NCBI GenBank assembly: GCA_001782235.1
Contig: MFOC01000007.1
Location: 86,799-150,798, forward strand
DNA length: 64,000 nt
Reading direction: 5' to 3'
DNA from: Candidatus Levybacteria bacterium RIFCSPHIGHO2_02_FULL_40_18
Lineage (GTDB): Bacteria; Patescibacteriota; Microgenomatia; Levybacterales; GWA1-39-11
Shown here: positions 17,554 through 36,103 of the stretch, piece after piece
How the letters are laid out: each line of letters begins with the position of its first letter
Position numbering within the stretch: the stretch's first letter is position 1
Program-made: the position numbers and the translations under genes
Notes under the pieces: model-generated
What the model saw: the letters and a program-made list of their open reading frames with translations, nothing else
The model's database searches: none
What the model was told of the DNA's origin: nothing

Positions 17554-17583
17554 TTGACAAAAAGTTATCCACATCTTTATACT
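17554..17583 (+). promoter_or_regulatory. dnaA promoter (TTGACA-18-TATACT) with consensus DnaA box TTATCCACA in the spacer
   Basis: TTGACA at 17554-17559, TTATCCACA at 17565-17573, TATACT at 17578-17583. About 50 nt upstream of the dnaA ATG. Confidence 0.6.
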
Positions 17584-17631
17584 CAAACCCCGCGAGAATT
17601 ATTTCGCATCTTTGGGGCAACCCTATTTTTT

Positions 17632-18966
17632 ATGGAAAAGCTCTGGAAGCAAGTTTTAGAAGAAATAGAACTCGAAGTATCAAAACCAATATTTCTCACT
17701 TTTTTCAAACCTACCGTTCTTGTTTCGCTTGAAAACTCCGTAGCAACCATTAATTCTCCAACACATATAACAGCGGAGTACATTGAAAAAAGATATTATT
17801 CTTTAATAAAAAAAGCTCTAGATAAAAAAACAGGACAAAATATAAGTATTATCTTTGCTGCAGGCGGATCCTCTCAGATAAATTTTAAAAGCAATAAGGG
17901 AGTAGGCCCTCTTTTTGTTAGCGACATAGAAAAAGATTCTAAAAAAATGCGGCCTGCAAGAATTAGGCCGGATTATACTTTTGAATCTCTGGCAGTATCA
18001 GACAGCAACCAGCTCGCCTATACGGCGGCTATGACTGTTGCCTCGTCTCCTGGAACAAAATACAATCCTCTTTTTCTTTATGGAACTGTCGGAGTGGGTA
18101 AAACTCATCTTATGAATGCTATAGCGAATAAAATTTTTGACGATAAAAAGAGCTTTAAACCCCTCTATTTAACGACGGAGGAATTCACGAACGAGGTTGT
18201 AGAGGCAATAAGAGATAAAACTACGGCAAATTTGAGAAGAAAATTTAGAAATGTTGATATACTTCTTTTGGATGATATCCAGTTTCTTGCCGGAAAAGAA
18301 AAAGTACAGGAAGAACTTTTTCATACATTTAACACTCTTATTGATAAGGGAAATCAAGTAGTTTTATCTTCCGATAGCCCCCCCCAAGAGCTTAAAAAAA
18401 TAGAAAAAAGATTAGCCTCCCGGTTTGAAGGAGGGCTCTTGGTTGACATAGAACCTCCTGACTTTGAGCTAAGATGCGCTATTTTATTAATAAAAAGCAG
18501 AAAATACGGCTTAAACCTAAGTCTTGAAGCTGCAAAAATTATTGCTGAGAAAATTGAGGACACGCGCGCACTCGAGGGGTTTTTGCTAAGACTTTCCTCT
18601 GTTTCTCAAGAAACTGACGATATCGATTTTGACCATGTTCTCTCTATTCTTAAGAAGAATAAAACATCCCCAGTTGTCTTTCATCCAGACACGATTGTTT
18701 CTACCGTCTGTTCTTTTTATAATATAAAACCAACACAGTTAAAAGGGGCAAAAAGAGATTCTTTTTTGGTAAGGCCAAGACATATTTGCATGTATCTTCT
18801 TAAAGAGGAGGCGGGCCTCACTTATGTTGAGATTGGAAATCTTCTTGGGGGTCGCGACCATTCAACCGTAATACATGCTGTGGAAAAGATTGGGAAACTT
18901 GCCTCTTCGTCTGATAAGACCCGTGAGGAAATTATGTTTATAAAAGGAAAAATAAAAGAATTTTAA
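17632..18966 (+). CDS. dnaA: chromosomal replication initiator DnaA
   Basis: AAA+ Walker A GTVGVGKTHL, box VII, and C-terminal DnaA-box-binding domain (ICMYLLKEE...LGGRDHSTVIHA). The ORF track starts at TTG 17554, which is the -35 hexamer. ATG 17632 (MEKLWKQVLEEIE) is the plausible start. Confidence 0.9.
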   Translation: MEKLWKQVLEEIELEVSKPIFLTFFKPTVLVSLENSVATINSPTHITAEYIEKRYYSLIKKALDKKTGQNISIIFAAGGSSQINFKSNKGVGPLFVSDIEKDSKKMRPARIRPDYTFESLAVSDSNQLAYTAAMTVASSPGTKYNPLFLYGTVGVGKTHLMNAIANKIFDDKKSFKPLYLTTEEFTNEVVEAIRDKTTANLRRKFRNVDILLLDDIQFLAGKEKVQEELFHTFNTLIDKGNQVVLSSDSPPQELKKIEKRLASRFEGGLLVDIEPPDFELRCAILLIKSRKYGLNLSLEAAKIIAEKIEDTRALEGFLLRLSSVSQETDDIDFDHVLSILKKNKTSPVVFHPDTIVSTVCSFYNIKPTQLKGAKRDSFLVRPRHICMYLLKEEAGLTYVEIGNLLGGRDHSTVIHAVEKIGKLASSSDKTREEIMFIKGKIKEF

Positions 18967-19151: not shown

Positions 19152-20249
19152 ATGAAAGTCGAATTTTTAATAGAAAATATTGAAAAATTTTTACCCCTAG
19201 TTTCTAAAATTATTCCTATTCATTCACAAATTCCTATTCTTTCAAATATTCTTCTTGAGGCAACAAAGCAAGGATTTTATATAAGCGTTACAAACCTAGA
19301 AATAGGAGCAAGAATTAAAATACCGGCAAAAATTGAAGAGATGGGAGCAACAACAGTTCCAGGAAGACAGTTCGTTGAAACACTCTCATCATTACCGAAA
19401 GACAAAGCATTATTGTTTCTAGAAAAAGATGCTTTAAAAATAAAATGCAGAGGCAATAATATTACTTTTCAAACAATTACAAGAGACGAGTTCCCAAATG
19501 TTCTTGATGAGAAGGGAGAAAAAAAACGTACCTTTTCAGAAGAAGAGATGAGGAGTATATTTGAAAAGTTAATAATAGCAGTCTCGCAAGATGACTCAAG
19601 GCCAGAGCTTACGGGAATATTGTTTTCTCAAAGAGATGGAAAAACAGATTTTGTTGCAACTGACGGATTTCGTCTCTCGTTAAAGAAGATGAAGAAAGAG
19701 AAAATGCTTTTAGGTCAGGAGTCAATAATTCTCCCCGCAAGATTAATTCTGGAGGCTATGGGCCTTCCTGGAGAAACATCTTTATATATTTACAAAAAAG
19801 GCAACCAGGTAGTTTTGGAAAACGATGAAACCCTTCTTATCGGGAGACTAATAAATGGCGAGTTCCCAAACTATGAAAGGGTAATTCCAACGTCTTTTAA
19901 AACAAGTATAACTTTAGATGTCCAAGAGCTTTTGCAAAAGTTAAGACTCGCATCCGTTTTTGCAAGAGACGCGGCAAATATTATCAGGTTAATAATATCA
20001 GAGGGTAAAGTGAAAATAACAGCCCGGGCAAGTGGTATAGGTGAGGGCGAGGCAATTATTGAGGGAGAACAGGAAGGAGAAGATAATGAAATAGCCTTTA
20101 ATATAAAGTTTTTAATAGATCTTTTGAAAAACACTCAGGAAAAGACATTGGTGATGGAACTTTCAAGCCCTGTTGAGCCGGCGACATTCAAGATCCCCGA
20201 GGACCCCGACTTTTTGCACATTATAATGCCCGTGCGTGTCCAAGAATAA
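19152..20249 (+). CDS. dnaN: DNA polymerase III beta sliding clamp DnaN
   Basis: Three-domain clamp collinearity, immediately downstream of dnaA. Confidence 0.9.
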   Translation: MKVEFLIENIEKFLPLVSKIIPIHSQIPILSNILLEATKQGFYISVTNLEIGARIKIPAKIEEMGATTVPGRQFVETLSSLPKDKALLFLEKDALKIKCRGNNITFQTITRDEFPNVLDEKGEKKRTFSEEEMRSIFEKLIIAVSQDDSRPELTGILFSQRDGKTDFVATDGFRLSLKKMKKEKMLLGQESIILPARLILEAMGLPGETSLYIYKKGNQVVLENDETLLIGRLINGEFPNYERVIPTSFKTSITLDVQELLQKLRLASVFARDAANIIRLIISEGKVKITARASGIGEGEAIIEGEQEGEDNEIAFNIKFLIDLLKNTQEKTLVMELSSPVEPATFKIPEDPDFLHIIMPVRVQE

Positions 20250-20764: not shown

Positions 20765-22981
20765 TTATAAACAAAAATTTGCCGCAGTATCAATAGGTTT
20801 TCTTCCTCCTGTTCCGAGAGAGGCAAACTCAAAATGAACATGATTACAATTGGGATTGTTTGTACAAATTTTGGCCCCAACATCCCCTGATTTTCCCTCT
20901 GAAGTGCCGCTTCCCTGGTCTACATGATGGAATCTAAGCCAGTAGAGCTTACTGGAAGGGCTTGTTCCTCTATACTCTATTATATAACCGACGCCGCTAT
21001 TAGTCCTATCTTCGGAAAGTAGTATCCAGTCAAGAATCTCCCCATCAATTTTTGGAAAATACACATTTTGCCCAGGAGGGCCGGGTATGTCTTCTGCGTA
21101 GTGTATATCTTCATATATGCATAGTTCGGGCGCAGGATAGTTGAGGCCGCAATGCCCGCATTCGCTTCTTGGTGTGAACTCGCTTCCGCAGGAAACAGTA
21201 GATGCAGTTGCTCCCGGAATCGGGCATGTAGCTGAAAACAATGGCCCTGAGGGTGGTGCAACTTCGATCAGCGCGCCATAAGACCCTGCCGGAACAAGTT
21301 TTTCATACCAAAATCTTATATTCGGAGGGAAGTTTGGATTTTGTGCGAATGTACAAGGCGCATCATGCCCGTCACTGTACCTACACATAAAATCAGCAAA
21401 TCTATCATTTGATAAAAAACCGAAACTAATAAAAACACAAGCGAGGCTTTTATTAATATCATCATTTTGCTGACCCGGTGCGCACCCAAGTGGGTCTGCG
21501 GCAGGCACCCCTTGCGCCCCCGACTCCTCAATCCATAGAGCAAGAAGAAACGCAGGATTCCATCCGTTTGCAACTGCCTGCGACACAATGGTATCCCAAT
21601 TGCCAATCTTTGCATCGGGCCAGTTAGCAGTGATTTGTCCGCGAATATCTTGCGGGATTACGTTTGGGTCACGAAAGGGTATAGAGTAGTTAAGTCCTGC
21701 CGCCTGTTGTCCTCCATCTCCAGGGCCGGTCCCCTGACCCCCTCCTCCCCCGCCTCCAAGACCAAGGCTGGGAGCAAAATTGCCTGGGTTAAATATAATA
21801 ATGAATAATGCAAGAGCAAAAATTACAAGAAGACCAATTCCTGCCCATCCGATAGGCGTGAGTTTTGCGAAAAAGCCAAGCGGCTGTGTTGCTGTTTGTT
21901 CAACTATTCGTCCCGCTGTTTGGACATTGCTTAACAAAGATGGGAGTTTGTTAATCCGATCCACTAAGCCCCTTCCAAGCCTTGATCCCGGAGCGCTTCT
22001 TATAGGCGTAGTGCCTATAGGTTTCTCAAGCGGAATATATAATTTATGGGGAGGGACAGCAGGTTTTATGGCTTCAAGTCTTTTTGTTGCTTCCGAAACC
22101 GATATTTTTGGAGCCTCGCGCTTAGCCTTTTCTACGTACTTTATTTCTTTCCCCGTGCTCTCTTGGAAAGACCGAAGACTTCTTTGAATACTCTCTCTTT
22201 CGACGGTTCTCCGTATATCATTATTGCTTGCTTGGTAAGCGCTAGATTTAGTAGGGTATTGCTTTGCAAACCTATCCCACTCCCGACTCTTGATCTTCTT
22301 TTCAATCTCGTCCCAATTCTCTTCGAGCTTTCCCGCTTCAAAAAGAGCTTTTCTTGCCTTAATGTGCTCGTCTATATTGCTCTTCGCTCGATTAACAGCG
22401 GGATCTTCATCAAGGGTTTTATAAATCTTTTTTGCGCGCTCGTCATAATATGCTGCCCGGCTTTTGTTTTTTTCGCGAAATTGTCTCTCGGCATCGCTAC
22501 GAAGCGTTGGAGCATCTGGGTTGTCCAAATTGCCATAGCGATAATCTAACCATTCGTGGCTCTCAGAGGTCTTCCCGGGATTATTTTTCTGCCACTCTTT
22601 TGCTAAATTCTCCTCTATTTTTTTAAACTTAGGGTCATCCTCCAATAGATCTGGCCGCCGCCGGATAAAGAAAAGAGGAGACGCTAGAAGTCCTGCAAAA
22701 TTTGCAAAACCCCCCTGCCCTCGAGCGGTTTCTTGTGGAGCTTCAGGTTCTTGCGTGGGTATTGTTGAAATAGCCTCAAGGATTTGACTTCCTATCCAAA
22801 TACGTTCTAGTTTGTTTGGATCAACGCTCAGGTCATTTGCGCGAAGATATGCCGCCAGTTCTGCGCGAGTTTTAAAAGGAGGTACGCGGTTTTCTTTTAG
22901 ATACTCATTTGTTTCTATTGCATAGCTTTGAGCGCGCTCACGGTTATTCTTTATAAATTTTGAAATATTGTCCATTGGCAA
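20765..22981 (-). CDS. membrane-anchored cell-wall hydrolase (SLT-like + M23-like motifs), VirB1-analogue candidate
   Basis: About 360-aa cytoplasmic charged N-terminal region, one TM (GWAGIGLLVIFALALFIIIF), a Gly-rich linker, then NGWNPAFLLALWIEESGAQG (lytic-transglycosylase-like E-S), then ...LRFHHVDQGSG...NCNHVHFEFAS (M23 HxxxD / HxH-like). Confidence 0.5.
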   Translation of the reverse strand: MPMDNISKFIKNNRERAQSYAIETNEYLKENRVPPFKTRAELAAYLRANDLSVDPNKLERIWIGSQILEAISTIPTQEPEAPQETARGQGGFANFAGLLASPLFFIRRRPDLLEDDPKFKKIEENLAKEWQKNNPGKTSESHEWLDYRYGNLDNPDAPTLRSDAERQFREKNKSRAAYYDERAKKIYKTLDEDPAVNRAKSNIDEHIKARKALFEAGKLEENWDEIEKKIKSREWDRFAKQYPTKSSAYQASNNDIRRTVERESIQRSLRSFQESTGKEIKYVEKAKREAPKISVSEATKRLEAIKPAVPPHKLYIPLEKPIGTTPIRSAPGSRLGRGLVDRINKLPSLLSNVQTAGRIVEQTATQPLGFFAKLTPIGWAGIGLLVIFALALFIIIFNPGNFAPSLGLGGGGGGGQGTGPGDGGQQAAGLNYSIPFRDPNVIPQDIRGQITANWPDAKIGNWDTIVSQAVANGWNPAFLLALWIEESGAQGVPAADPLGCAPGQQNDDINKSLACVFISFGFLSNDRFADFMCRYSDGHDAPCTFAQNPNFPPNIRFWYEKLVPAGSYGALIEVAPPSGPLFSATCPIPGATASTVSCGSEFTPRSECGHCGLNYPAPELCIYEDIHYAEDIPGPPGQNVYFPKIDGEILDWILLSEDRTNSGVGYIIEYRGTSPSSKLYWLRFHHVDQGSGTSEGKSGDVGAKICTNNPNCNHVHFEFASLGTGGRKPIDTAANFCL

Positions 22982-22991
22982 GACAAGCTAT

Positions 22992-25049
22992 CTATGAAGA
23001 AACTATTTTTATTCCTTGAGAGCTTTCATCTAGGTTGGCTTGCGAAATTTTTTCTTGCTCTTGAACGGGAGACGTGTTAGCAGGGGGGGCTGTCATATCT
23101 TGCGCCTGTGTCTCTGGTTGCTCTCCGGGAGCGGATTGAGCGTCAGCGATGGAGGCATCCTCGCTGACAGGCGTGGGCGACGTAGCGGTGGCTGCCTCTT
23201 CTTCATGGGCAAGAATATCTTGAGGTTTTGAGGTGATCAGATCATATTCATATTGTGACGCTATGAACTGCGCGGTTACATGGTTTTGTCCTGCAAAAAG
23301 AAGTCCTTCCCCAACCTGGGCGGTTACTAAAAATTGTTTCTCTCCTTCTGATAAAAATAACGTTTTTGCCAAAACTTCAACTTCTGACGAGTTCTGTTTC
23401 AAGAGAATTTGGACTGAGGAGTTTGAAAGAATAGACTTTCCATAGTCGCTTGACAGGAAATCTTCAATATCCTGAGTAAGGGTTGTCACGCCAAGAAAAT
23501 ATTTTCTTGCGCGCTTTGCTATCCCTTGCAAAAAGGAGGCAGAATCAGGATGCTTCATAAGATACCATGCCTCATCAACCACCAAAATTCTTTTCTTAAG
23601 TTTTGTTCTGACGCGATTCCAAATAAAATCTAAAACCACGTGCATTGCAATTGGACGCAAAACATCCTCGAGCTGTTTAAGAGAAAAGACGGTTAATTGA
23701 TTTTTTATGTTGTAATTCGTCTGCTGATTAAATAGCCCAGAGAATCCACCTTTTACATATTTTTCAAGACGGAAAGAGAGATCCCTTGCCTCCGGCTCCT
23801 CCATATTAAGTAAGGTTTTATAAAGGTCCTCCAAGATCGGCGGCTCGTTTTTGTAGGTTGCAGGATCCGGCGTTATTCCCTTTTGCTTGTAACAAAGAAC
23901 AATCGCTCTATCTAAAATTGCCTCTTGTGTTGGAGACATCTCCCCAAGCATTGTTTTTAGGAGTCCGTGAAGAGATAATATTTTTATTCCAAGCTGGGCA
24001 TCTGTCATGTCTTCTTGGAGAAGGGCAAACGGGTTAATTTTTACCTCAGAACTTTTTGAGAAGTTTATATATTCGCCATCCAAAGCATGACATAAGGTTT
24101 TGTATTCATCTTCGGGATCTATTATTAAAATCTCGGCGTCAAACATCATTTGCCGCAAAATTTCAAGCTTTACCAAAAAAGATTTTCCGGCGCCCGATTT
24201 TCCAAAGACCACTTCATTTGCATTCTCAAAAGAAAAGCGGTCAACAATCGCAAGCGAATTATTTATGGTATTCACGCCATATAGAATTCCGTTTGGATGG
24301 GAAATTTCATAAGACGTAAATGGAAAAGTTGAAGCCAAAGACGTTGTGTCCATATTGCGGGTTATAAATAGCTTGTCGATTCCTGCTGGAAGACAGGTTT
24401 TGAATCCGTCTTCCATCTGAAGCGTTGCGGGTTTTACAACCAAAAGGTTTGAGGAAAGCAAAGACTGAAGTTCTTTGGTTTTTATATCTAAATTCTCAAC
24501 TGAATCTGCTGCCAGGGTTATATATAGACCAAATTGGAAAAACCGTTCAAGACCTCGCGCTAGCTCTTCTCGGAGCGCTATAGCATCTTCAAGCCCCGCC
24601 TGAATTTTAGGATCCGGCTCAAGCCCCTGTTCCGCATCTGACTGAAGTGTTGCCTCCATCTCGGAGATTTTCCTTCGCAGGTTTCCCAAAACATCCTTGC
24701 TTTCAACCGGATATACAAACATTGATATGTTCATTGTTTCTTTATAGTCAATAAGAATTGAGAGCCAGTTTGGAGAAACCTGACGAGGGTAATCTACAAC
24801 AAAAAACGTTCTGAAAAACTTATCGCCAACTCTTATATTTTTAAAATCTACCTCAACTGAGGAGGGGGATATAAGGTCAACAACAGAAACCGAGCCTGAC
24901 TTGAGAGCATTATATCCTTGCGAGGAGGCGCGTTTTTGAGCAGGCCCCGCACCGTCCCGGTGCGGGGCAGGGACTTTCTGGATCTGAGCGTTAGCGGCGG
25001 TTGGATCCGATATAGCCTGTGTCTGTTGTTTTTTATCTTCATCAAACAT
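22992..25049 (-). CDS. VirB4/TrbE/CagE-family type IV secretion ATPase (ATPase body)
   Basis: Walker A FGKSGAGKSF, Walker B ILVVDEAWYLM, and N-terminal FFVVDYPRQVSPNWLSIL CagE_TrbE_VirB-like segment. Confidence 0.75.
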   Translation of the reverse strand: MFDEDKKQQTQAISDPTAANAQIQKVPAPHRDGAGPAQKRASSQGYNALKSGSVSVVDLISPSSVEVDFKNIRVGDKFFRTFFVVDYPRQVSPNWLSILIDYKETMNISMFVYPVESKDVLGNLRRKISEMEATLQSDAEQGLEPDPKIQAGLEDAIALREELARGLERFFQFGLYITLAADSVENLDIKTKELQSLLSSNLLVVKPATLQMEDGFKTCLPAGIDKLFITRNMDTTSLASTFPFTSYEISHPNGILYGVNTINNSLAIVDRFSFENANEVVFGKSGAGKSFLVKLEILRQMMFDAEILIIDPEDEYKTLCHALDGEYINFSKSSEVKINPFALLQEDMTDAQLGIKILSLHGLLKTMLGEMSPTQEAILDRAIVLCYKQKGITPDPATYKNEPPILEDLYKTLLNMEEPEARDLSFRLEKYVKGGFSGLFNQQTNYNIKNQLTVFSLKQLEDVLRPIAMHVVLDFIWNRVRTKLKKRILVVDEAWYLMKHPDSASFLQGIAKRARKYFLGVTTLTQDIEDFLSSDYGKSILSNSSVQILLKQNSSEVEVLAKTLFLSEGEKQFLVTAQVGEGLLFAGQNHVTAQFIASQYEYDLITSKPQDILAHEEEAATATSPTPVSEDASIADAQSAPGEQPETQAQDMTAPPANTSPVQEQEKISQANLDESSQGIKIVSS

Positions 25050-25170
25050 AATTTATTTAATTCAAAACTCAAAAGTCAAAAGTTAAAAATTAAAGTTAAA
25101 ATTTAAAAGTGTTTTTAATACTTTTTACTTTTGAATTGCAATTTTGAATTTTGCATTTTGACTTTTAACT

Positions 25171-25845
25171 TTACAATATTACATTCTTAATATCATTCGA
25201 ATCAAAATCCAAAGTAATAAACTCCTGATTGAATAGTTCATAGTAAAGCTTTATAAGCTCATTAGTTGAAAGTGGTCGAGCAGAGAGTCCCATTCTCTCA
25301 ACTTGCGTAGTAACATTGTTTCTTTTTGAAATAAGCGCTGATTTTACCCTCTCATTTAATGCCAGGTTTTTTTTGTCCGTTGTTTTCGCTTGTGCAGCAG
25401 AGGCTACCCCAAGCTCCAGTTGAGAAAACGGGATTACAATATAAATCTTTTTGTCTAAAAGTCCCTCACCCTTTATCAGATCTTTTATAAAATCTCTATA
25501 TAATGTTAATTGTTCCTTGACCTTAGGGTTTTGGATTCCTGCTATTTTATCCTCGATTAGTTTTATGTAACTGACAAGATCTACGCGCCGTGAGACAATC
25601 AATATTTGAATAGATGAAGAGAGAGAATTAAGAAGAGACATGTAGCCATAGATTCTTGCGTTTTGTTCATCTTGTGAGAGAAGGAAAAAATTAACGGACG
25701 AAACTTCCATAATCATACAAGCATTGCCGCCTTTTAAGAAGACAATATCGTCCTGGATGTCAACAATCTCAGTAAAATCTTGCGTGCTTGAGTGAATCTT
25801 TGACTTAGCCATAATCGATATAGAAATTGGTTGTAGGATTTCCAT
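25171..25845 (-). CDS. VirB4 N-terminal-domain protein (separate ORF)
   Basis: LKGGNACMIMEVSSVNFFLLSQDEQNARIYGYMSLLNSL..IQILIVSRRVD aligns with the VirB4 N-terminal region (LEDGSIMSIARIDGVAFELEE..NARCRAFNTLLRNIAD.HVSIYAHLVRH). It is out of frame with the downstream ATPase ORF. Confidence 0.5.
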   Translation of the reverse strand: MEILQPISISIMAKSKIHSSTQDFTEIVDIQDDIVFLKGGNACMIMEVSSVNFFLLSQDEQNARIYGYMSLLNSLSSSIQILIVSRRVDLVSYIKLIEDKIAGIQNPKVKEQLTLYRDFIKDLIKGEGLLDKKIYIVIPFSQLELGVASAAQAKTTDKKNLALNERVKSALISKRNNVTTQVERMGLSARPLSTNELIKLYYELFNQEFITLDFDSNDIKNVIL

Positions 25846-25880
25846 TACTAATTTCCATTTTCCAATAACTATTTTCTAGT

Positions 25881-26954
25881 CTATGCTGTTGCTTGGACTC
25901 CGCCGAATAGTTCGCGTCTTAGTTTCTCACGTGCGTCGATTGACGTAGTTTCTAGTGGATTAAAAATCTCGCCGTTCAAAGTAATTTCCGTTGCTTCAAA
26001 TTCATGATTTTTCTGTGGGTCCTCAAAATAGATTTTATAGGTGCCGTTTTGAAGCTGAGTAGCAGAGGCAAATTGTCCAAGAGCATTTGTTTTAAAGGCC
26101 CTAACCGGAATGCCGTTTGAGTCAATTACCTCAACTAAAATATTAGGCAAGGTTTTACCTCGTGCATCACGGATAATTCCAAGCACTACATTGGGGACAT
26201 CGGGTAGAGTTGGAAAGCCTCCGGTAAGGCTTGGATTTGCACGCACAGGGGTTGGCTGTGGCAGAGTTGTTTCTTTTGGAATTTCATGCCGAGTTTCCTT
26301 CATTGAAAATTCAGCGTCCCCAGCCTCTTTTTTGGGGACAGGCGGGGGGCGTTGAGCTTCCTTTGCGATTTCATCAAGTCTTTTTTTGTTCAGCTCCGAA
26401 GCCGTGTTTTCTTGATTTACCACCATAGGACTTCCTAAAACCGGCGGAGTAGAGACCGCACTTGATCCGTTTGTAAAATAGCTATTGATGGTGTCCAATA
26501 TGCGAGTTTCTGATTGATCCGGACGGAAAGGAGAATTTCTGAGTCTGCTTAATAAAACTGCTCTTTTTTCATCTTGTGGATTCGCAACCTTTGCTATCCC
26601 GCCTTGGCGGGGGGCACCTTGCTTTTTGGGAAGCTCGCCAAACACTTGAAACGTTGCCAGATTTGCACCCCTTTTTCTATATAGATAGCGATTTTCAGAA
26701 GGAATTGCTTTTGCAAAGTTGACGAGCATTACATCCATTGGTCTTCCTTCAATTGGAACAAATGCAAGAGCAACTCCTACAAGCGCAAAAGCCGCCATAG
26801 TTGGAGCTTTAATTAAAATATTGATTGGAAGTACAAAAGCAACAGTTGTTAAAATTCCAAATCCGAGAAGATATAAAAATTGCTTTACAGTAATGCTTCC
26901 AATGAGTTTAAACTTGAAACCCGTAACATCTTGCGGAATAGGGTGATTTTCCAT
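25881..26954 (-). CDS. VirB3/PrgI-like membrane protein with Pro-rich linker and C-terminal Ig-/transthyretin-like domain
   Basis: Two N-terminal TM helices immediately upstream of VirB4, which is the VirB3 position. The C-terminal domain (TLPNILVEVIDSNGIPVRAFKTNALGQFA..) looks CarboxypepD_reg-like. Confidence 0.4.
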   Translation of the reverse strand: MENHPIPQDVTGFKFKLIGSITVKQFLYLLGFGILTTVAFVLPINILIKAPTMAAFALVGVALAFVPIEGRPMDVMLVNFAKAIPSENRYLYRKRGANLATFQVFGELPKKQGAPRQGGIAKVANPQDEKRAVLLSRLRNSPFRPDQSETRILDTINSYFTNGSSAVSTPPVLGSPMVVNQENTASELNKKRLDEIAKEAQRPPPVPKKEAGDAEFSMKETRHEIPKETTLPQPTPVRANPSLTGGFPTLPDVPNVVLGIIRDARGKTLPNILVEVIDSNGIPVRAFKTNALGQFASATQLQNGTYKIYFEDPQKNHEFEATEITLNGEIFNPLETTSIDAREKLRRELFGGVQATA

Positions 26955-27195: not shown

Positions 27196-28539
27196 CTATT
27201 TCTGAGAGGCCATGTCCATACCCATATCCGCCACAGCCATAAGAAGAAACAGAAGACCTAGCAGTCCTATCCCGCCAATTGTTTTTGCCTTTTTGATGGC
27301 GGCTTCTCTCTTTAATTTTTTTTCAGCTTTTTGTTCCGGAGAATCTTTAGGATCATCCTGCAATTCATGAAAAATAGCATTTACAGCTGTTTCAAGATTA
27401 CCGCTTTTTAATGCATTTTTTACTTCTCTTGCGGTTTTAGTGTCTACTTGTGCAGTGCGGACCTTTTCAAGATAAATTTGCATGCCCTGGTCCTGCCTTA
27501 GGTAGTCTGAAGCTTTTTCATAAAAAGATACATATTCTCTTTCCAATGCAAGCTCTCGTTCTAACTGTTTTCTCGTTTCTCCATCAAGATTTCCACTATT
27601 TAAGCTCTTCTGAATTTCTTGTACTCTACTTGAAGCTCTTGTAGAGAGCGTATCAAGATCCAAGTTCTGCATAATTTTTGCAGCGGTTTCTGGGTCAAGC
27701 AAATTTCTACCTGCGAGCGAATCTAAAAACTCTTGTTTTTGAGCTGGATCTTCAATAGTGCGTTCAGCAAACCCCCGCATGTCTTCTGTGGTTATAATTT
27801 CTGTTTCATCCGCAGCTTTTTTGCTGAGAGCATTTATATTATTTGAGTCTTTTCCTTCAAGCGCTTGTTCTCCTCCTTGGAGCACATCTATATGCAACTG
27901 GAGTAGCTCCCTTTGCCCGGGGGGCATGCGTGCCATTATTACAGAAGCAGCATCCGGGTTAGAAGTTAAAATTGATTGTTGGATTTGCTCTCGCGTTAAA
28001 GTTTCTGGGACTTGTACATTTTCATTTTCAGGATCCTGCAAGAAACAGGAAAATTTTCCATCTGCAGTTACCTCAAGGCTTTTTACAGTCATTACCTTAC
28101 CGTCTTTTGTATATTTCAAAGGGTCACTGGATTTAAATGTTAGTGCCTCACCTGTATGAGTGCCATCGCTCAAGGTTTCTATTTGCCACATTCCAAAGAG
28201 TAGATTTTTACCCTTATCAGTTTCGAGCAAATTGATTCTTTCCTGCTCTGTCAAGCCCTCGACTTCTTGAGCTGCTTGCCTCATTTCCCTGTAGACCGAG
28301 CGGCTTCCCACAGTCCCTATCTCTCTTATTTGAGTTTGCCTGGAGACTTCTCTTTCTGAAGTTCTTGATTCCTCTTGTTCAAGAGATGAGTCCTGGCGAG
28401 AAGGAGTATCTCGCTGCACTGGTGGCGGCACTACAGCTGTTGCTTCAGGGGTCGCACCTTCTATTGCGTCTGGTCCCATAAACTTATCATACTTGAAAAA
28501 ACAAGCTGCTTCAAGTAATAATAGTGATATATGGTTCAA
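27196..28539 (-). CDS. hypothetical charged/coiled-coil protein with C-terminal TM anchor
   Basis: Glu/Gln-rich, C-terminal IGGIGLLGLLFLLMAV. A hairpin terminator follows at about 27135-27165. Confidence 0.5.
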   Translation of the reverse strand: MNHISLLLLEAACFFKYDKFMGPDAIEGATPEATAVVPPPVQRDTPSRQDSSLEQEESRTSEREVSRQTQIREIGTVGSRSVYREMRQAAQEVEGLTEQERINLLETDKGKNLLFGMWQIETLSDGTHTGEALTFKSSDPLKYTKDGKVMTVKSLEVTADGKFSCFLQDPENENVQVPETLTREQIQQSILTSNPDAASVIMARMPPGQRELLQLHIDVLQGGEQALEGKDSNNINALSKKAADETEIITTEDMRGFAERTIEDPAQKQEFLDSLAGRNLLDPETAAKIMQNLDLDTLSTRASSRVQEIQKSLNSGNLDGETRKQLERELALEREYVSFYEKASDYLRQDQGMQIYLEKVRTAQVDTKTAREVKNALKSGNLETAVNAIFHELQDDPKDSPEQKAEKKLKREAAIKKAKTIGGIGLLGLLFLLMAVADMGMDMASQK

Positions 28540-31500
28540 TTCAATTCACATGAATTGGCAGTAGCAGGTCCTGCCACAAGACAACCGCGACAAGGGCGGA
28601 AAGAAGAGCAAGCACCCCCAGGATCGGAAACTGTTTTAAAAGTTCGGAAAAGCGCATTCTTAAGAGAAGAAACATCAGGTACTCGTGTAAGAAGCATTAG
28701 AGGACGAGAACGCGGAATCCAGTCAGAGTGGGTTTCTTTAGATGAACATATAAAAGAAGAGTATCGAATTTTTCTAAAAGACCATGCTGAAGGTTTATTA
28801 AGGCTTTACAACAACCACCAAGAAATCCTCCAAAGCGAACCTCACAGACACGATGAGGAATTATTCAACATGTTTACATCTGAGAGAAGAAACGCAGACG
28901 GTACCATTAAGAAAATAATAGATGAACAAAAAATTGAGGGCTTCTTAAAAAAACCGGAAGGATGGATGGTAACAACGCAATTACTTGAGCATCAAACCGC
29001 AATGCAATTGTTTGCGTTAGGGTTGCACGCAGCTGCTAATCCTCAGGGAGAAAGAAATGCTTTGGGTGGTAAGGTAACTATTCCACTTGGAATAGATCAG
29101 GGTATTTTAAACAGGCTTGGGAGGGAAGTGGTAGAAGGTTTAAGACTTAATGAGTTTGCTGCTACCTTTGGAGGAAGAAGAGGGGAGGCAAGAATTTTGG
29201 GCTTAATTAGGGCTCCCTGGGCAGATAATTTAAGGCGATGGCATGTAGCAGGAATAACGGGCGGTGCATCCGCTTTGGGAATAGCAGGCACCGCAATGCT
29301 TGGACCGGAGGCAATGATTGGAGCAGGTATTGCCCCATGGGCATTTCAATGGCTCCAAGCCTCAATTGGCACTGGTGTTCAGGTTGACATGAGGCAGTGT
29401 AGCGCAGCTTTTCAGGCAATAAGAACGAATCCCACAGAGGTTGAATATGTAAAAGAAGTTTTTGGAGTAGATATGCGAGATTTTGTCGATCTTGGCTATA
29501 ATCAAATCGGCCTAGCACCACATAGAGCGGTGGGAGGCAATCTTGAAACCTATACAGACGTAAACAATCTGAGAAATAATGCCGTAGGAAATATAATTAC
29601 GCGCATGGAATTCTACACCAAAATTGGTGTTCCGCTTGAGAAGCTTGATGCCTTACCCGAGCAATTTCTATATTTATATACTAACCAACAGGAGCAAACC
29701 GGAACCGAATGGCAGAGAAGAATTCAAGAAGTCTTCCTTCCGAATGCCGGAGGCATCAGAGACATAAATGGTAATAACATTGAAACTGCTCCCGGAGTTC
29801 CCAATCCGGCTTTTGACGCCAACAATTTGGATTTTGCCGGAAACATCTCAAGATACATGGATGCAAGAAGACAGATAATGGTAGGAATGGTACGGGATAT
29901 GATTCAAGAAGAAAGAAGTGCGGCGGCTTCTTTAGATCAATCAAAGCAAGCAATTACCCAAATGATAACAGAGAGAAGATCTGAAGGTTATAGACAAAGA
30001 AGAACAGAAAGACTGGGTCAAGAAAGAACAAGACTCGAAGCCTATAGAAATATTTTAGATGGGCAGACAGGTGCATTCACTATATATAACCAAACAATAA
30101 CGGAGCTTAATGAAGAGAGAACAAATCTTGCGACCGAACTTTCAAGGACTTTTGCAGGAGCATTTGGAGGAGATGTTGATGCTGCTTTAACCTCGGCCAG
30201 AAGTATTTTATCGACGCCTGGAACTACCATAACTATTAATGGAAATGTAATTGCTTCTACTCGTCAGAGATTTACAGATCTTGATGCCTGGAGGTCAACA
30301 GAGATAGCCGATATAAAAAATCACAGACCAGCACATTTAGACCCGACAGACGATGAGTATCCAGTATGGGTTCAATCAGAGAGAGAAAGAATACTTAGCG
30401 ATTATCAGAACCAGAAAGCTGATATTCAAGCAGATGTAAATATAATCAACCAGCAGATTGAAAATCTTGAGGGGTTTAGAACTAGAGTTACAGTAGCTGA
30501 AAGGCGGCTTGAGAACAACGAAGAGGGACAGCCATCAAGGATTCTCATTCAACAACTCGAGGGTTGGGAGAGGGATCGCGCTCAAATTACTGGTTGGGGC
30601 ACGCCTGCTAATGTTTTGGATAATGCGTTTTTAGCTAGCGGCGATATAGATGCGATTATGGCAAGAATTAACACTGCTAATGCTGCTACTCCCGCAAACG
30701 GTTGGCCGGAGGCAAGAAATAATGATCCGGCTTATAGAACTCGAGTTTTTCAAGCAGTTCTTGAGTCAAGAGCTCAAGTAGCAGAAGCAGCTGACACAAC
30801 AAGAGCAGCAAGACTTCCTGATTATGTCATTATAACTAACCCTGCAGTATGGAATATTAGTCAGAATGAGTTAAGACACATGACTCCTGCCGATTTAACA
30901 GCCGCACTAACAGCAAGGGCCCCGGCATTAGGGGGAATACCAATTCCAAATCCAGCTCAAATTGAAAACGCTATTCGTGAAGCACAAAATAGAATTCAAG
31001 TTAGATTAGGAGCTATCACAGAGCAAACAAGAATTACTGACGAAGCGATAGAAAACAGAAGGTTCCAAATAGAAGGCGTTAACTTTGATGATGAGATCAG
31101 ACAACTTGAAACAGCATTAACTTTGCTTAATCGACAGCCGGATATTATTGCAGGACGCCCGACTCGTGAGAATCGTGCTACATTTACCGACAGGACTGTT
31201 ATGGCAGGAGATACAACATATTCACAATCTGAAAGAGACGTAGGTTCTGTCAGGGGCTATTATGAATTTATGAATCTCCTCTTTAATTATAGAGAAAGAG
31301 GCGTAGTTGAGGGAGTGGACCGCGACGAATATTTTAGAAGAATTTCTCAAGTTTTACCACCAGCAAGATTAGGGCAATTACTAAATGAAGCTTTGGGATT
31401 GGGAGGTTCCGGAATAAATCTCAATACTGTCTTAGCAAGACTTGATGCAAGACTTGCCTCAGGACAAATAAACGACAGAGATATGGTAAGGGTTTTATTC

Positions 31501-31545
31501 AATGTAATAGAAAGAAATAGACTTGAGGCTCTTGCCCTAAGTTAA
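28531..31545 (+). CDS. giant hypothetical protein (1004 aa), island-specific
   Basis: One central hydrophobic Gly/Ala-rich stretch (AGITGGASALGIAGTAMLGPEAMIGAGIAPWAF) and extensive coiled-coil-like Gln/Asn/Arg-rich regions. No recognisable catalytic motif. Confidence 0.6.
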   Translation: MVQFNSHELAVAGPATRQPRQGRKEEQAPPGSETVLKVRKSAFLREETSGTRVRSIRGRERGIQSEWVSLDEHIKEEYRIFLKDHAEGLLRLYNNHQEILQSEPHRHDEELFNMFTSERRNADGTIKKIIDEQKIEGFLKKPEGWMVTTQLLEHQTAMQLFALGLHAAANPQGERNALGGKVTIPLGIDQGILNRLGREVVEGLRLNEFAATFGGRRGEARILGLIRAPWADNLRRWHVAGITGGASALGIAGTAMLGPEAMIGAGIAPWAFQWLQASIGTGVQVDMRQCSAAFQAIRTNPTEVEYVKEVFGVDMRDFVDLGYNQIGLAPHRAVGGNLETYTDVNNLRNNAVGNIITRMEFYTKIGVPLEKLDALPEQFLYLYTNQQEQTGTEWQRRIQEVFLPNAGGIRDINGNNIETAPGVPNPAFDANNLDFAGNISRYMDARRQIMVGMVRDMIQEERSAAASLDQSKQAITQMITERRSEGYRQRRTERLGQERTRLEAYRNILDGQTGAFTIYNQTITELNEERTNLATELSRTFAGAFGGDVDAALTSARSILSTPGTTITINGNVIASTRQRFTDLDAWRSTEIADIKNHRPAHLDPTDDEYPVWVQSERERILSDYQNQKADIQADVNIINQQIENLEGFRTRVTVAERRLENNEEGQPSRILIQQLEGWERDRAQITGWGTPANVLDNAFLASGDIDAIMARINTANAATPANGWPEARNNDPAYRTRVFQAVLESRAQVAEAADTTRAARLPDYVIITNPAVWNISQNELRHMTPADLTAALTARAPALGGIPIPNPAQIENAIREAQNRIQVRLGAITEQTRITDEAIENRRFQIEGVNFDDEIRQLETALTLLNRQPDIIAGRPTRENRATFTDRTVMAGDTTYSQSERDVGSVRGYYEFMNLLFNYRERGVVEGVDRDEYFRRISQVLPPARLGQLLNEALGLGGSGINLNTVLARLDARLASGQINDRDMVRVLFNVIERNRLEALALS

Positions 31546-33034: not shown

Positions 33035-33171
33035 ATTAGAAATTGGTTATTAATAATTAGAAAATAGTTCAGAAATTAGAAATTAGAAATTGGTTCTTGA
33101 TTTTTAACTATTTTCTATTCTCTATTTTCCATTACCATTTTCCATTCTCCTATAACTATTTTCTAATATAT
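33035..33171. repeat. palindromic intergenic element (family copy 2)
   Basis: TAGAAATTGGTTCTTGATTTTTAACTATTTTCTATTCTCTATTTTCCATTACCATTTTCC is nearly the exact reverse complement of copy 3. Confidence 0.65.
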
Positions 33172-36040: not shown

Positions 36041-36103
36041 AGAAAATAGAAAATAGTTATTAGAAAATAGACAATGGTTCGGAAATTAGAAAATAGAAAT
36101 TGG
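36041..36103. repeat. purine-word half-element (family copy 4, left arm)
   Basis: AGAAAATAGAAAATAGTTATTAGAAAATAGACAATGGTTCGGAAATTAGAAAATAGAAATTGG. Confidence 0.55.

What the first reader, a model, noticed from the sequence alone, without database searches (positions are those of the whole stretch)
25050..25170. VirB4 encoded as two out-of-frame ORFs separated by a 121-nt AT-rich imperfect palindrome
The VirB4 N-terminal signature region is in ORF 25171..25845 and the ATPase body in 22992..25049 (frames differ). The spacer CAAAAGTCAAAAGTTAAAAATTAAAGTTAAAATTTAAAAGT...ACTTTTGAATTGCAATTTTGAATTTTGCATTTTGACTTTTAACTTT is made of short A/T-rich units and their inverse. It forms a long hairpin with no SD or promoter hexamers. 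This could be a genuine two-subunit VirB4, the remnant of an inserted element splitting the gene, or a site of programmed recoding or slippage.
Basis: partly seen in the sequence, partly recalled or inferred. Interest (0 to 1): 0.55.

Follow-up and report, generated by a model that had tools for sequence, protein, structure and literature searches.

The report
Split VirB4 (TrsD + ATPase) with spacer
The secretion-system ATPase VirB4 really is encoded as two genes here, but this is the normal, already published arrangement in this group of ultra-small bacteria (a TrsD-like protein plus the ATPase), and the odd AT-rich stretch between them is a later-inserted copy of a dispersed repeat built from 7-base units, not a recoding site or an error.

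Summary
ORF1 (25171..25845, minus strand) and ORF2 (22992..25049, minus strand) are in different frames and 121 nt apart. The spacer is 83.5% A+T and dyad-symmetric.

Together the two ORFs cover a VirB4 profile once, without overlap: NF045971 positions 18-181, then 177-732. A 787-aa Patescibacteria homolog carries both parts in one chain. The ORF1 model matches only TrwK/VirB4 among solved structures.

The split is not a lesion. All 39 related Levybacteria loci have the same stop and the same downstream ATG. The gap ranges from 1 to 123 nt, with every relative frame. It is the TrsD + VirB4 pair already described for Patescibacteria (PMC12102498) and present on plasmid pSK41. Recoding, pseudogene and assembly artefact are rejected.

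The spacer is an insertion into an ancestrally tight junction. It consists of opposed arrays of degenerate heptamers. It is no more stable as a hairpin than shuffled sequence. Related elements lie between other genes in this window and in many metagenome contigs. Its function is unknown. The genome almost entirely lacks Shine-Dalgarno sites, so their absence here means nothing. The repeat class is the only potentially new part.

The parts
25171..25845 (-). trsD-like gene. It encodes the first ~200 residues of the VirB4 N-terminal domain as a separate protein. The ORF is 224 aa, but the real start is probably Met12 at 25812 (213 aa).
   Evidence: NCBIfam: NF045971 (CD1110-family VirB4) profile positions 18-181, NF045975 positions 100-278, and NF041427 TrsD positions 11-200 of 201. 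The precomputed Pfam family is PF26593 TraC-like. There are 514 homologs, and the best 120 are about 180-235 aa stand-alone proteins. AlphaFold2 model pLDDT is 81.6, and the top 14 Foldseek hits in PDB are all TrwK/VirB4. Homologs start at MAKSK.
25050..25170 (.). 121-nt intergenic spacer, 83.5% A+T. In coding orientation it holds about 7 A-rich heptamers (TCAAAAT, GCAAAAT, TCAAAAG), a short centre, then about 7 inverse T-rich heptamers (ACTTTTG, AGTTTTG).
   Evidence: A homologous spacer occupies the same junction in L001 (121 nt) and L009 (111 nt). 19 of 39 related loci have only 1-9 nt at this junction and so lack any such spacer. The sequence is identical in 3 independent assemblies, and a fourth differs at 2 of 3675 bases of the locus.
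25050..25079 (-). Sigma-70-like promoter match inside the T-rich arm: TTGACT (25079..25074), 18 nt, TAAATT (25055..25050), directly abutting the virB4 ATG.
   Evidence: Consensus scan, 9 of 12 matches. L001 has the equivalent TTGACT-N17-TTAAGT-ATG (read). This is a consensus match only. The -10 lies closer to the ATG than the 6-8 nt typical of this genome.
22992..25049 (-). virB4 (TrsE-like) gene, 685 aa. It has a disordered N-terminus (~aa 1-45), the second half of the VirB4 N-terminal domain, the RecA-like ATPase with Walker A GKSGAGKS and Walker B ILVVDEAW, and a low-complexity C-terminal tail.
   Evidence: NF045971 profile positions 177-732, E 1.4e-122, above the curated cut-off. Pfam P-loop_TraG, AAA_10 and CagE_TrbE_VirB. 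PDB 4AG5 VirB4 C-terminal domain, E 1.3e-46. The ATG and the first codons (MF/LG..KK) are conserved in 39 loci.
25813..25880 (.). Spacer upstream of the trsD start. It holds a second, partial heptamer array of the genome's other unit type (TAGAAAA, TGGAAAA, TGGAAAT ... CCAATTTCTA).
   Evidence: Read directly. The same units occur in the elements at 10021..10119, 33058..33117, 34630..34689, 41351..41477 and 42566..42689.
25881..26954 (-). PrgI (VirB3-like) family gene immediately upstream of trsD. It is part of the same T4SS gene string.
   Evidence: Pfam PF12666 PrgI, 30.5 bits against a cut-off of 27. The same gene order is seen in 5 independent contigs.

Best explanation
This is the ordinary T4SS ATPase locus of a Levybacteria (Patescibacteria/CPR) chromosome, next to dnaA-dnaN. 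VirB4 is naturally encoded as two proteins.

The two proteins:
- A ~213-aa TrsD-like protein carries the first half of the VirB4 N-terminal domain. In single-chain VirB4 (TrwK), that domain contacts VirB3 and the membrane complex.
- A 685-aa TrsE-like protein carries the rest of the N-terminal domain plus the ATPase.
- The two presumably assemble non-covalently into a VirB4-equivalent unit. This step is inferred.

The spacer:
- Ancestrally the two genes were separated by only 1-6 nt (TAA-n-ATG), as in about half of the relatives. That arrangement allows co-transcription and translational coupling.
- In the lineage of this window, a 121-nt AT-rich element was inserted exactly between the stop and the start. 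It is made of opposed arrays of degenerate heptamers.
- The element belongs to a dispersed class of intergenic repeats. Other copies lie between unrelated genes in this genome and in many other genomes, usually ending within a few bases of a start codon.

Likely function (inferred, not shown):
- The genome works almost without Shine-Dalgarno sites, and most genes have a -10 box 6-8 nt before the ATG, so transcripts are leaderless or nearly so.
- The element therefore most likely supplies or preserves the initiation signals for virB4. Candidates are the TTGACT-N18-TAAATT promoter-like site and a U-rich, unstructured leader.
- It more likely works as a DNA or single-strand RNA array than as one defined hairpin.
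- No recoding joins the two ORFs.
For: Split and homology:
- ORF1 and ORF2 match NF045971 at positions 18-181 and 177-732, and NF045975 at positions 100-278 and 292-890.
- The fused homolog P0144 (787 aa) aligns with ORF1 at aa 6-200 and with ORF2 at aa 210-775. It covers NF045971 positions 3-735 in one chain.
- The ORF1 model hits only TrwK/VirB4 in PDB at E <= 3e-3.
- The ORF2 ATPase matches 4AG5 at E 1.3e-46.

Conservation:
- 39 of 39 related genome loci keep the stop after ..D(I/V)KN(V/I)xx and the ATG of MF/LG..KK.
- Gaps range from 1 to 123 nt: 19 loci have 9 nt or less, 7 have 19-39 nt, and 13 have 71 nt or more.
- All three relative frames occur, and the stop is TAA, TAG or TGA.
- ORF1 homologs are 57-87% identical, with 67 invariant columns among 20 sequences.

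Precedent:
- pSK41 carries trsD (227 aa), a 14-nt gap and TrsE (672 aa). TrsE starts at NF045971 position 183.
- hhalign of the ORF1 family against pSK41 TrsD gives 95.4% probability.
- PMC12102498 reports TrsD as a remote homolog of the VirB4 N-terminal portion. It found 2,272 copies in Patescibacteria, 1,664 of them next to virB4, and the copy in Southlakia epibionticum ML1 is essential.

The spacer is real and inserted:
- It is identical in at least 4 independent assemblies.
- Related elements with the same left-arm core lie between other genes (L040, L072, L117, L126).
- Six elements of the same architecture occur in this window.

Genome context:
- SD-like motifs occur at 3 of 55 genes.
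- -10-like boxes peak 6 and 8 nt upstream of the ATG: 10 and 6 genes, against 0.38 expected per bin.
Against: - No direct evidence shows that TrsD and the ATPase bind each other. No complex model or experiment was available.
- The promoter-like site is only a 9-of-12 consensus match. Its -10 abuts the ATG, whereas the genome's own -10 boxes sit 6-8 nt upstream. L009 lacks the -35 at the aligned position.
- Folding gives no strand preference that would support a sense-RNA role. The antisense strand folds better for the window, L001 and L009.
- Whether the shared spacer of the window, L001 and L009 reflects common descent or repeated insertion of the same element was not resolved. Closer relatives (L002-L005) carry different spacers.
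Confidence: 0.87

Rival explanations
1. The spacer functions as a sense-strand RNA hairpin between the two cistrons. It could be a partial terminator or attenuator, an RNase III processing site, or a 3' stabiliser of the trsD message. Its effect would be to set the TrsD:VirB4 expression ratio.
For: The dyad symmetry is significant. Several unrelated spacers at the same junction in relatives are also dyad-symmetric and fold better than shuffles: L001 z -3.75, L005 -5.4, L013 -4.3, L002 -4.6. All five high-scoring elements in the window lie between co-directional genes; a sixth, lower-scoring one (41351..41477) lies between divergent genes. From general knowledge, long imperfect double-stranded RNA is the usual RNase III substrate, as in the Correia/NEMIS elements and the phage T7 intercistronic sites.
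Against: In this window the fold is not better than shuffles (z -1.24 RNA). The antisense strand folds better than the sense strand (-26.5 against -17.7 kcal/mol), and likewise in L001 and L009. Registers shifted by 7 or 14 nt pair almost as well. No terminator-like site lies in the spacer. No Rfam family matches. About half of the relatives do without any spacer.
Confidence: 0.2
2. The spacer is a neutral, decaying copy of a small mobile palindromic element (MITE- or REP-like). It landed in a permissive intergenic site and has no function for virB4.
For: Orthologous junctions show presence/absence and replacement polymorphism. Related copies lie between unrelated genes in other genomes. Each genome seems to have its own unit type; for example, L037 has CAAATTG-type elements at two sites. 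Arm complementarity here is only 72-75%.
Against: No target-site duplication or consistent termini were seen, and no transposase association was found (read). The window and L001 spacers are at least as similar as the flanking coding DNA: the left arm differs at 1 of about 51 positions, while the proteins are 87% identical. In a genome without SD sites, a 121-nt insertion between formerly coupled genes should be harmful unless it carries initiation signals. The elements end within 0-10 nt of start codons far too regularly.
Confidence: 0.3
3. The two ORFs are joined by programmed recoding (frameshift, bypass or readthrough) across the spacer into one VirB4 polypeptide.
For: The two parts together equal one VirB4, and a single-chain form exists in other Patescibacteria. 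The dyad-symmetric spacer superficially recalls the take-off and landing structure of a translational bypass.
Against: The spacer has several stops in all three frames. In relatives the gap is 1-123 nt, with frame offsets 0, +1 and +2 and three different stop codons, while the ORF2 ATG is invariant. No slippery site is conserved. pSK41 and thousands of Patescibacteria annotate two proteins.
Confidence: 0.01
4. The locus is a virB4 pseudogene disrupted by an insertion, or an assembly artefact.
For: The ORFs are out of frame and separated by a low-complexity stretch. That is how a disrupted gene or a mis-assembly would look in a single sequence.
Against: The same split occurs in 39 of 39 relatives with strong protein conservation. 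The Walker motifs are intact. 3675 nt including the spacer are identical in contigs from different samples and assemblers. The TrsD homolog is essential in Southlakia.
Confidence: 0.01

Closest known systems
TrsD/TraD + TrsE/TraE of staphylococcal conjugative plasmids pSK41 and pGO1 (MPF-FATA type IV secretion)
   Same: A ~210-230-aa protein homologous to the first part of the VirB4 N-terminal domain is encoded immediately upstream of a ~670-690-aa VirB4-like ATPase. That ATPase begins at the same profile position: NF045971 position ~180, with TrsE at 183-730 and ORF2 at 177-732. hhalign gives 95.4% probability between the ORF1 family and pSK41 TrsD.
   Different: pSK41 is a plasmid conjugation system with a 14-nt gap between the genes. 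Here the system is chromosomal, next to dnaA-dnaN, and the gap is 121 nt filled by a repeat element. ORF1 scores 32.7 bits on NF041427, against a curated cut-off of 200. It is therefore a remote homolog and not a member of that subfamily model.
The Patescibacteria T4SS described in PMC12102498 (Microb Genom 2025)
   Same: The gene set is the same (TrsD, VirB4, PrgI/VirB3, VirB2-like pilin arrays), and so is the location near dnaA/dnaN in Microgenomatia. The paper reports TrsD as the most abundant T4SS component, usually adjacent to virB4.
   Different: The passages I read do not discuss the trsD-virB4 junction, its variable spacer or the heptamer elements. I searched the paper for specific terms and did not read it in full.
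Single-chain VirB4: TrwK of R388 (PDB 7O41, 8RTB), CD1110-family VirB4, and the fused Patescibacteria protein P0144
   Same: The fold and domain order are the same: N-terminal domain, then RecA-like ATPase. The ORF1 model matches TrwK, and ORF2 matches 4AG5 and TrwK. P0144 aligns end to end with ORF1 + ORF2.
   Different: These are one polypeptide. Here there are two, cut within the N-terminal domain at about residue 200-210 of P0144.
TAACTGA heptamer direct repeats of Beggiatoaceae, Cyanobacteria and Bacteroidetes (MacGregor 2015, PMC4679880)
   Same: Both are tandem 7-nt units in intergenic DNA that end within a few nucleotides of start codons. [quoted passage not shown] S1, Csp and CsrA were proposed as binders.
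   Different: The unit sequence differs (AAAAGTC/AAAATGC and TAGAAAA here). Here the arrays come as opposed, inverted pairs that form an imperfect palindrome; the TAACTGA repeats are almost all direct.
Small dispersed palindromic intergenic repeats such as REP/REPIN, ERIC, Correia/NEMIS and other MITE-like elements (from general knowledge)
   Same: They are 100-150 nt long, dyad-symmetric and intergenic. They are present or absent at orthologous sites, occur in several copies per genome, and sometimes carry promoter-like ends.
   Different: No terminal inverted repeats with target-site duplication were recognised, and no cognate transposase was found. The internal 7-nt periodicity with degenerate units is not a feature of those families.

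Membership tests
VirB4/TraC/CagE type IV secretion ATPase | C-terminal RecA-like P-loop ATPase domain with Walker A and Walker B motifs | tested here: met
   ORF2 aa 254-606 matches 4AG5 at E 1.3e-46. Pfam P-loop_TraG E 7.4e-34. NF045971 scores 410.5 bits against a cut-off of 325. GKSGAGKS and ILVVDEAW are visible.
VirB4/TraC/CagE type IV secretion ATPase | VirB4 N-terminal domain present once, upstream of the ATPase | tested here: met
   ORF1 covers NF045971 positions 18-181 and ORF2 covers 177-732, with no overlap or duplication. The fused homolog P0144 is collinear with both. Foldseek matches ORF1 to TrwK.
VirB4/TraC/CagE type IV secretion ATPase | Both domains in one polypeptide (canonical architecture) | tested here: not met
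   There are two ORFs in different frames, 121 nt apart, with stops in all frames. The split is conserved in 39 of 39 relatives.
VirB4/TraC/CagE type IV secretion ATPase | Encoded among other T4SS genes (VirB3/PrgI, pilins, VirB6-like) | tested here: met
   A PrgI-family gene is adjacent. T4SS_pilin domains occur in 32699..33034 and 33172..34569. VirB6 was not identified: the 738-aa neighbour has no family hit.
VirB4/TraC/CagE type IV secretion ATPase | ATP hydrolysis, hexamer formation and interaction of the two halves | not testable with these tools
   This needs biochemistry or a complex structure prediction.
TrsD/TraD family (NCBIfam NF041427) | Score at or above the curated cut-off of the family model | tested here: not met
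   ORF1 scores 32.7 bits (E 6.3e-8) against a cut-off of 200, although the match spans profile positions 11-200 of 201. pSK41 TrsD scores 227.6.
TrsD/TraD family (NCBIfam NF041427) | Homology to TrsD over the full length, and a position directly upstream of a VirB4-like ATPase that lacks this segment | tested here: met
   hhalign gives 95.4% probability over 174 columns. The split point on NF045971 is the same. The sizes are 213-224 aa against 227 aa.
Pfam PF26593 TraC-like domain | Significant match to the Pfam model | tested here: inconclusive
   Precomputed annotation assigns PF26593 to the identical protein P0001 and to most homologs. The local Pfam scan returned no such hit, only TraC_F_IV at E 0.17.
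Programmed ribosomal frameshift or translational bypass site | Fixed frame relation, conserved slippery or take-off sequence, and no independent start for the downstream part | tested here: not met
   Frame offsets of 0, 1 and 2 occur, gaps are 1-123 nt, the stop codon varies, and the ATG is conserved. The spacer has stops in all frames.
Intrinsic (Rho-independent) terminator | Short G+C-rich stem followed by a U tract | tested here: not met
   No terminator-like site lies in 25050..25170. The stem is AT-rich, and only 20 of the 121 bases are G or C.
MITE- or REP-like dispersed palindromic repeat | Multiple related copies in unrelated intergenic contexts, and presence/absence at orthologous sites | tested here: met
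   The left-arm 21-mer has at least 119 exact hits in metagenome contigs. CPR-type copies share the core beyond the 21-mer. The orthologous junction is empty in 19 of 39 loci. Six elements of the same architecture occur in the window.
MITE- or REP-like dispersed palindromic repeat | Defined terminal inverted repeats with target-site duplication, or an associated transposase or RAYT | tested here: inconclusive
   Many high-GC copies read GTAATTC...GAATTAC, but others lack the flanking TA. No transposase gene was looked for beyond the loci held.
Heptamer arrays upstream of start codons (TAACTGA type) | Tandem 7-nt units ending within a few nt of a start codon in regions without a canonical RBS | tested here: met
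   The period-7 signal is specific. The arrays end 0-10 nt from the ATG. SD-like motifs occur at 3 of 55 genes.
Heptamer arrays upstream of start codons (TAACTGA type) | Unit TAACTGA, in direct orientation only | tested here: not met
   The units here are AAAAGTC/AAAATGC/AAAATTC and TAGAAAA/TGGAAAT, arranged as inverted array pairs.

The most novel reading that the evidence does not exclude
The spacer may be one copy of an undescribed class of intergenic cis-element. The class consists of paired, opposed arrays of degenerate heptamers, 100-150 nt long, that sit flush against start codons.

What supports this:
- The elements turn over rapidly at orthologous sites.
- They use genome-specific unit sequences.
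- Nearly the same units (TCAAAAT/GCAAAAT) occur in AT-rich Patescibacteria and in 60-65% G+C Vicinamibacterales (Acidobacteriota). There they flank a conserved GC-rich central hairpin.

What it would mean: in genomes that lack Shine-Dalgarno sites, such arrays could be binding platforms for a single-strand-binding factor with a ~7-nt footprint (S1- or Csp-like). That factor would enable or tune initiation at internal cistrons such as virB4.
Probability: 0.25. Interest if true: 0.6.

Novelty: new member of a known kind. Interest (0 to 1): 0.27.

Why it matters
For the finding as written, little changes. The locus should be annotated as trsD + virB4, not as a broken or recoded virB4. This is the standard, already published arrangement in Patescibacteria, where these genes are essential for the epibiotic lifestyle in the one system tested.

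Three points are useful for annotation pipelines:
- The split point is the same as in pSK41.
- The ancestral junction is 1-6 nt.
- Fused forms are rare: 2 of the 150 best family representatives.

The spacer is the more open part. It shows that formerly coupled genes in a genome without SD sites can tolerate, or exploit, the insertion of heptamer-array elements. That repeat class is widespread and unannotated. If it proves functional, it would bear on how translation and transcription start sites are specified in CPR bacteria.

Tried and rejected
- **Rfam.** The whole window and 16 related loci at gathering score, plus the spacer and an acidobacterial copy at E <= 1, gave nothing relevant.
- **Hairpin stability.** RNA and DNA folds are not better than shuffles in this window.
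- **Strand test.** I compared sense and antisense folding and G-U content across 18 spacers to tell RNA-level from DNA-level function. There was no consistent bias.
- **Terminator scan.** None lies in the spacer.
- **First structure model.** The model of ORF1 from a shallow alignment (pLDDT 60) was discarded and redone with 63 diverse sequences.
- **Direct searches with ORF1.** Pfam and phmmer against PDB were uninformative. NCBIfam, profile and fold comparisons were needed.
- **Partner-arm detection.** My ungapped detection on the metagenome hits failed because registers differ. Those counts are not used.
- **Gene-orientation census.** The census around metagenome copies is unreliable in high-GC contigs because of spurious ORFs. 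It is used only qualitatively.
- **Literature.** I searched for the heptamer sequence and for inverted heptamer arrays. Only analogies turned up: TAACTGA repeats and G-rich heptamers.
- **Considered and rejected.**
  - An intein or intron: 121 nt is too short and there is no ORF.
  - A code-25 stop reassignment: the stop is TAA.
  - An Frpo-like single-strand promoter of transferred DNA: the element class is not T4SS-specific.
Full report
**1. The observation**

On the minus strand the window carries an ORF at 25171..25845 (224 aa) and an ORF at 22992..25049 (685 aa). They are separated by exactly 121 nt, 25050..25170. ORF2 is in the +1 frame relative to ORF1.

The spacer is 83.5% A+T and has several stop codons in all three frames. 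Read in coding orientation, it consists of about seven A-rich heptamers (TCAAAAT, GCAAAAT, TCAAAAG ...), a short centre, and about seven inverse T-rich heptamers (ACTTTTG, AGTTTTG ...).

- The dyad symmetry exceeds chance. The best palindrome scores 17.5, against 9.8 +/- 1.6 in 500 dinucleotide shuffles (none reach it). When the two halves are shuffled separately, 1 of 500 reaches it.
- Period 7 is the only tandem period between 3 and 12 that is detectable anywhere in the 64-kb window. The two spacer arms are the strongest such arrays.
- The 'long hairpin' is not thermodynamically special. The RNA fold has z = -1.24, with 25 of 200 shuffles folding as well. The DNA fold has z = -1.67.
- Pairing registers shifted by 7 or 14 nt keep 60-66% complementarity, against 72% for the best register.
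- 'Opposed arrays of a degenerate heptamer' therefore describes the spacer better than 'one defined hairpin'.

**2. What the two ORFs are**

ORF2 is a VirB4-type ATPase.
- Its residues 254-606 match the crystallised VirB4 C-terminal domain 4AG5 at E 1.3e-46.
- It passes the curated cut-off of the CD1110-family VirB4 model NF045971 (410.5 bits against 325).
- Walker A (GKSGAGKS) and Walker B (ILVVDEAW) are intact.

ORF1 has no hit in the local Pfam scan. Three independent lines tie it to the VirB4 N-terminal domain.
- **Profiles.** On NF045971 (752 positions), ORF1 covers 18-181 and ORF2 covers 177-732. On NF045975, ORF1 covers 100-278 and ORF2 covers 292-890. ORF1 also spans the whole TrsD/TraD model NF041427 (positions 11-200 of 201, E 6e-8).
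- **A fused relative.** The 787-aa Patescibacteria protein P0144 aligns with ORF1 at residues 6-200 (41.5% identity) and with ORF2 residues 57-620 at residues 210-775 (57%). It covers NF045971 positions 3-735 in one chain. Four independent 787-aa copies are on record.
- **Structure.** An AlphaFold2 model of ORF1 from a 63-sequence alignment (pLDDT 81.6, pTM 0.70) finds only TrwK/VirB4 of the R388 system among solved structures at E <= 3e-3. These are the top 14 hits, with probability 1.00 and 168-203 aligned columns. The next hit has E 0.04.

**3. Is the split a lesion, a recoding site or an artefact?**

It is none of these. A scan of one genome per species returned 39 loci from Levybacteria and Microgenomatia MAGs that encode a relative of ORF1, at 57-87% identity.

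- In all 39, ORF1 ends at the same place (..D-I/V-K-N-V/I-x-x-stop). A separate ORF2 follows with its own ATG and a conserved beginning (ATG TTx GGx = MF/LG..KK).
- The gap is 1-9 nt in 19 loci, 19-39 nt in 7 loci and 71-123 nt in 13 loci.
- The frame offset takes all three values, and the stop is TAA, TAG or TGA.
- The split is therefore old and maintained, and the ancestral junction was tight (for example TAA-t-ATG). No fixed frame relation or slippery site exists that recoding could use.
- ORF1 is under strong constraint, with 67 invariant columns among 20 homologs.
- The 514 homologs found by the word-indexed search are led by 120 stand-alone proteins of about 180-235 aa.
- Among the 150 best representatives of the exhaustive profile search, only two are fused to the ATPase (P0144 and the truncated P0136). 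Of the 150, 92 exceed 300 aa, and nearly all of these (P0144 excepted) carry a long low-complexity C-terminal tail instead of an ATPase.
- The exact ORF1 protein lies on 24 contigs that were read. The 3675 nt around it, spacer included, are identical in contigs from ENA, JGI and NCBI assemblies of different samples (0, 0, 0 and 2 mismatches). This excludes an assembly artefact at the consensus level.

**4. Comparison with what is known**

The arrangement is known.
- PMC12102498 (Microb Genom 2025) describes the Patescibacteria T4SS. [quoted passage not shown]
- In that study TrsD was the most abundant T4SS component recovered: 2,272 homologs, 1,664 of them associated with VirB4. The copy in Ca. 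Southlakia epibionticum ML1 is listed as essential.
- The same paper notes that in Microgenomatia the system lies near dnaA/dnaN. Here dnaA (17554..18966) and dnaN (19152..20249) directly precede the cluster. PrgI-like and T4SS-pilin genes are present.
- The prototype is on staphylococcal plasmids. In pSK41, trsD (227 aa) is followed after 14 nt by the TrsE ATPase (672 aa). TrsE starts at NF045971 position 183, the same split point as ORF2.
- hhalign of the ORF1 family against pSK41 TrsD gives 95.4% probability.
- ORF1 does not reach the curated cut-off of NF041427 (32.7 bits against 200). I call it TrsD-like and not a member of that subfamily model.

**5. What the spacer is**

It is an insertion into the tight junction.

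- A clearly homologous spacer lies at the same junction in L001 (121 nt) and L009 (111 nt).
- Other close relatives carry unrelated spacers at this site. Several of those are built on the same plan from different units: TTCGAAA in L005, ATGGTTA/AACCAT in L013, TTATTGC/AACAAT in L004, AAAATAT in L003 and CAAATTG in L037. Some fold well beyond shuffles: L001 z -3.75, L005 -5.4, L013 -4.3, L002 -4.6.
- A palindrome scan of the window finds the same architecture in five other intergenic regions: 10021..10119 upstream of ruvB, 33058..33117 and 34630..34689 among pilin-like genes, 41351..41477, and 42566..42689 upstream of nrdR. These are built from TAGAAAA/TGGAAAT units. A partial array of that type lies directly upstream of the likely trsD start.
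Only one of those contigs even carries trsD/virB4.
- AT-rich, CPR-like copies (L040, L072, L117, L126 and others) share the left-arm core well beyond the 21-mer. They lie between other genes and typically end within 0-10 nt of an ATG.
- About half of the hits are in 55-70% G+C contigs. One of them (L115) is from Vicinamibacterales, Acidobacteriota. There the same heptamer arms flank a variable centre, often a conserved ~70-nt GC-rich centre. The elements sit between co-directional genes such as tamB and tamA.
- Rfam has no family for any of these.

**6. How the spacer most likely works (inference)**

The window shows an unusual expression architecture.
- Only 3 of 55 genes have an SD-like motif.
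- TATAAT-like boxes pile up 6 and 8 nt upstream of start codons: 10 and 6 genes, against 0.38 expected per bin.
- Most transcripts should therefore be leaderless or nearly so. The absence of an SD site before virB4 is the genome's norm and says nothing about whether ORF2 is translated independently.

Where trsD and virB4 are 1-6 nt apart they can be co-translated by coupling. A 121-nt insertion breaks that, so virB4 needs its own signals.
- The T-rich arm provides a promoter-like TTGACT-N18-TAAATT that abuts the ATG. L001 has TTGACT-N17-TTAAGT.
- The T-rich arm also provides a U-rich stretch immediately 5' of the start codon.
- I consider it most likely that the element supplies or preserves initiation for virB4, but this is not shown. 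The -10 match is weak and lies closer to the ATG than in the genome's other genes. L009 lacks the aligned -35.

An RNA-hairpin role (attenuation, RNase III processing or stabilisation) remains possible. The weak fold, the better antisense fold and the multiple pairing registers do not favour it. A neutral, decaying mobile element is the other serious rival.

The nearest published analogy for heptamer arrays flush with start codons, in regions that lack ribosome-binding sites, is the TAACTGA repeat system of Beggiatoaceae. S1, Csp or CsrA binding was proposed there. Those repeats are direct, not inverted.

**7. Verdict**

The finding is real and was correctly read as a split VirB4. But it is the standard, published TrsD + VirB4 arrangement of Patescibacteria, with a plasmid prototype. 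It is neither a recoding site nor a disrupted gene.

The only part that may be new is the spacer. It is a member of an unannotated, apparently widespread class of inverted heptamer-array intergenic elements, and I could characterise its function only by inference. I score overall interest as low to moderate, and I state the repeat class separately as the most novel reading.

Noticed in passing
window 10021..10119, 33058..33117, 34630..34689, 41351..41477, 42566..42689; also 25813..25880 and 36041..36103: A family of 60-150-nt AT-rich intergenic elements built from TAGAAAA/TGGAAAT heptamers followed by their inverse (CCAATTTC, CTAATTTC). Most lie between co-directional genes and end 0-20 nt before an ATG (ruvB, pilin-like genes, nrdR). 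Several share a terminal motif AAC(C/T)AATTTCTA.
   Followed up: partly
whole window (55 ORFs of at least 100 aa): Shine-Dalgarno-like motifs occur at only 3 of 55 genes. TATAAT-like -10 boxes peak exactly 6 and 8 nt upstream of the ATG (10 and 6 genes, against 0.38 expected per bin). This points to predominantly leaderless or near-leaderless mRNAs in this Levybacteria genome.
   Followed up: partly
L040-L158 (metagenome contigs), e.g. L115:3159-3330 and L115:7403-7500: The heptamer arms TCAAAATGCAAAATTCAAAATGCAAAC ... GTTTGCATTTTGCATTTTGAATT also occur in 55-70% G+C soil contigs. L115 is from Vicinamibacterales, Acidobacteriota. The arms flank a variable centre, and in about a dozen copies that centre is a conserved ~70-nt GC-rich module with a hairpin (GGGGTGAA...TTCACCCC, with GGGATGAA...TTCATCCC as an apparent compensatory variant). 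There is no Rfam match and no explanation.
   Followed up: partly
window 35217..35261 and 41282..41317: Period-7 tandem repeats lie inside apparent coding regions. GGCTGTT x4 is within the 438-aa protein with an OmpR-type C-terminal DNA-binding domain. GAATAAG-like x5 is near the 5' end of ORF 39722..41335. Heptamer copy-number change there would shift the reading frame.
   Followed up: no
proteins P0130-P0269 (representatives of the ORF1 family): In other Patescibacteria the stand-alone TrsD-like domain is often followed by a 100-500-aa low-complexity tail rich in Q, P, N, S and T (for example P0238 at 715 aa and P0215 at 679 aa). 92 of the 150 best representatives exceed 300 aa. The ORF2 N-terminus and C-terminus are also low-complexity.
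   Followed up: partly
window 54198..54269 (-): A tRNA-Ile with anticodon UAU (tat). Most bacteria read AUA with a lysidine-modified CAU tRNA, so this is uncommon.
   Followed up: no
window 45704..45777 (+): An AdoCbl-II (cobalamin) riboswitch aptamer, 39.8 bits against a gathering score of 36.5. It lies upstream of ORF 45857..46408 and directly after the 834-aa ORF that follows nrdR, which may be a B12-dependent ribonucleotide reductase (not checked).
   Followed up: no
L002:4631-4701: At the same trsD-virB4 junction this relative has a 71-nt, G+C-richer spacer. Its overlapping inverted repeats (CGCGGAT / GATCCGCG and CCACGGATC / GATCCGTGG) could form alternative hairpins (z -4.55).
   Followed up: no
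L160:393-1465 (GCA_001782635.1): In one otherwise near-identical assembly the PrgI-like gene is called as two ORFs (217 + 140 aa) instead of one 357-aa ORF. That suggests an indel or frameshift in that assembly or strain.
   Followed up: no
window 20765..22981, 27196..28539, 28531..31545: Large genes flanking the T4SS core (738, 447 and 1004 aa) have no Pfam or NCBIfam family. The 738-aa gene starts about 10 nt after virB4 and could be the missing VirB6-like component.
   Followed up: no
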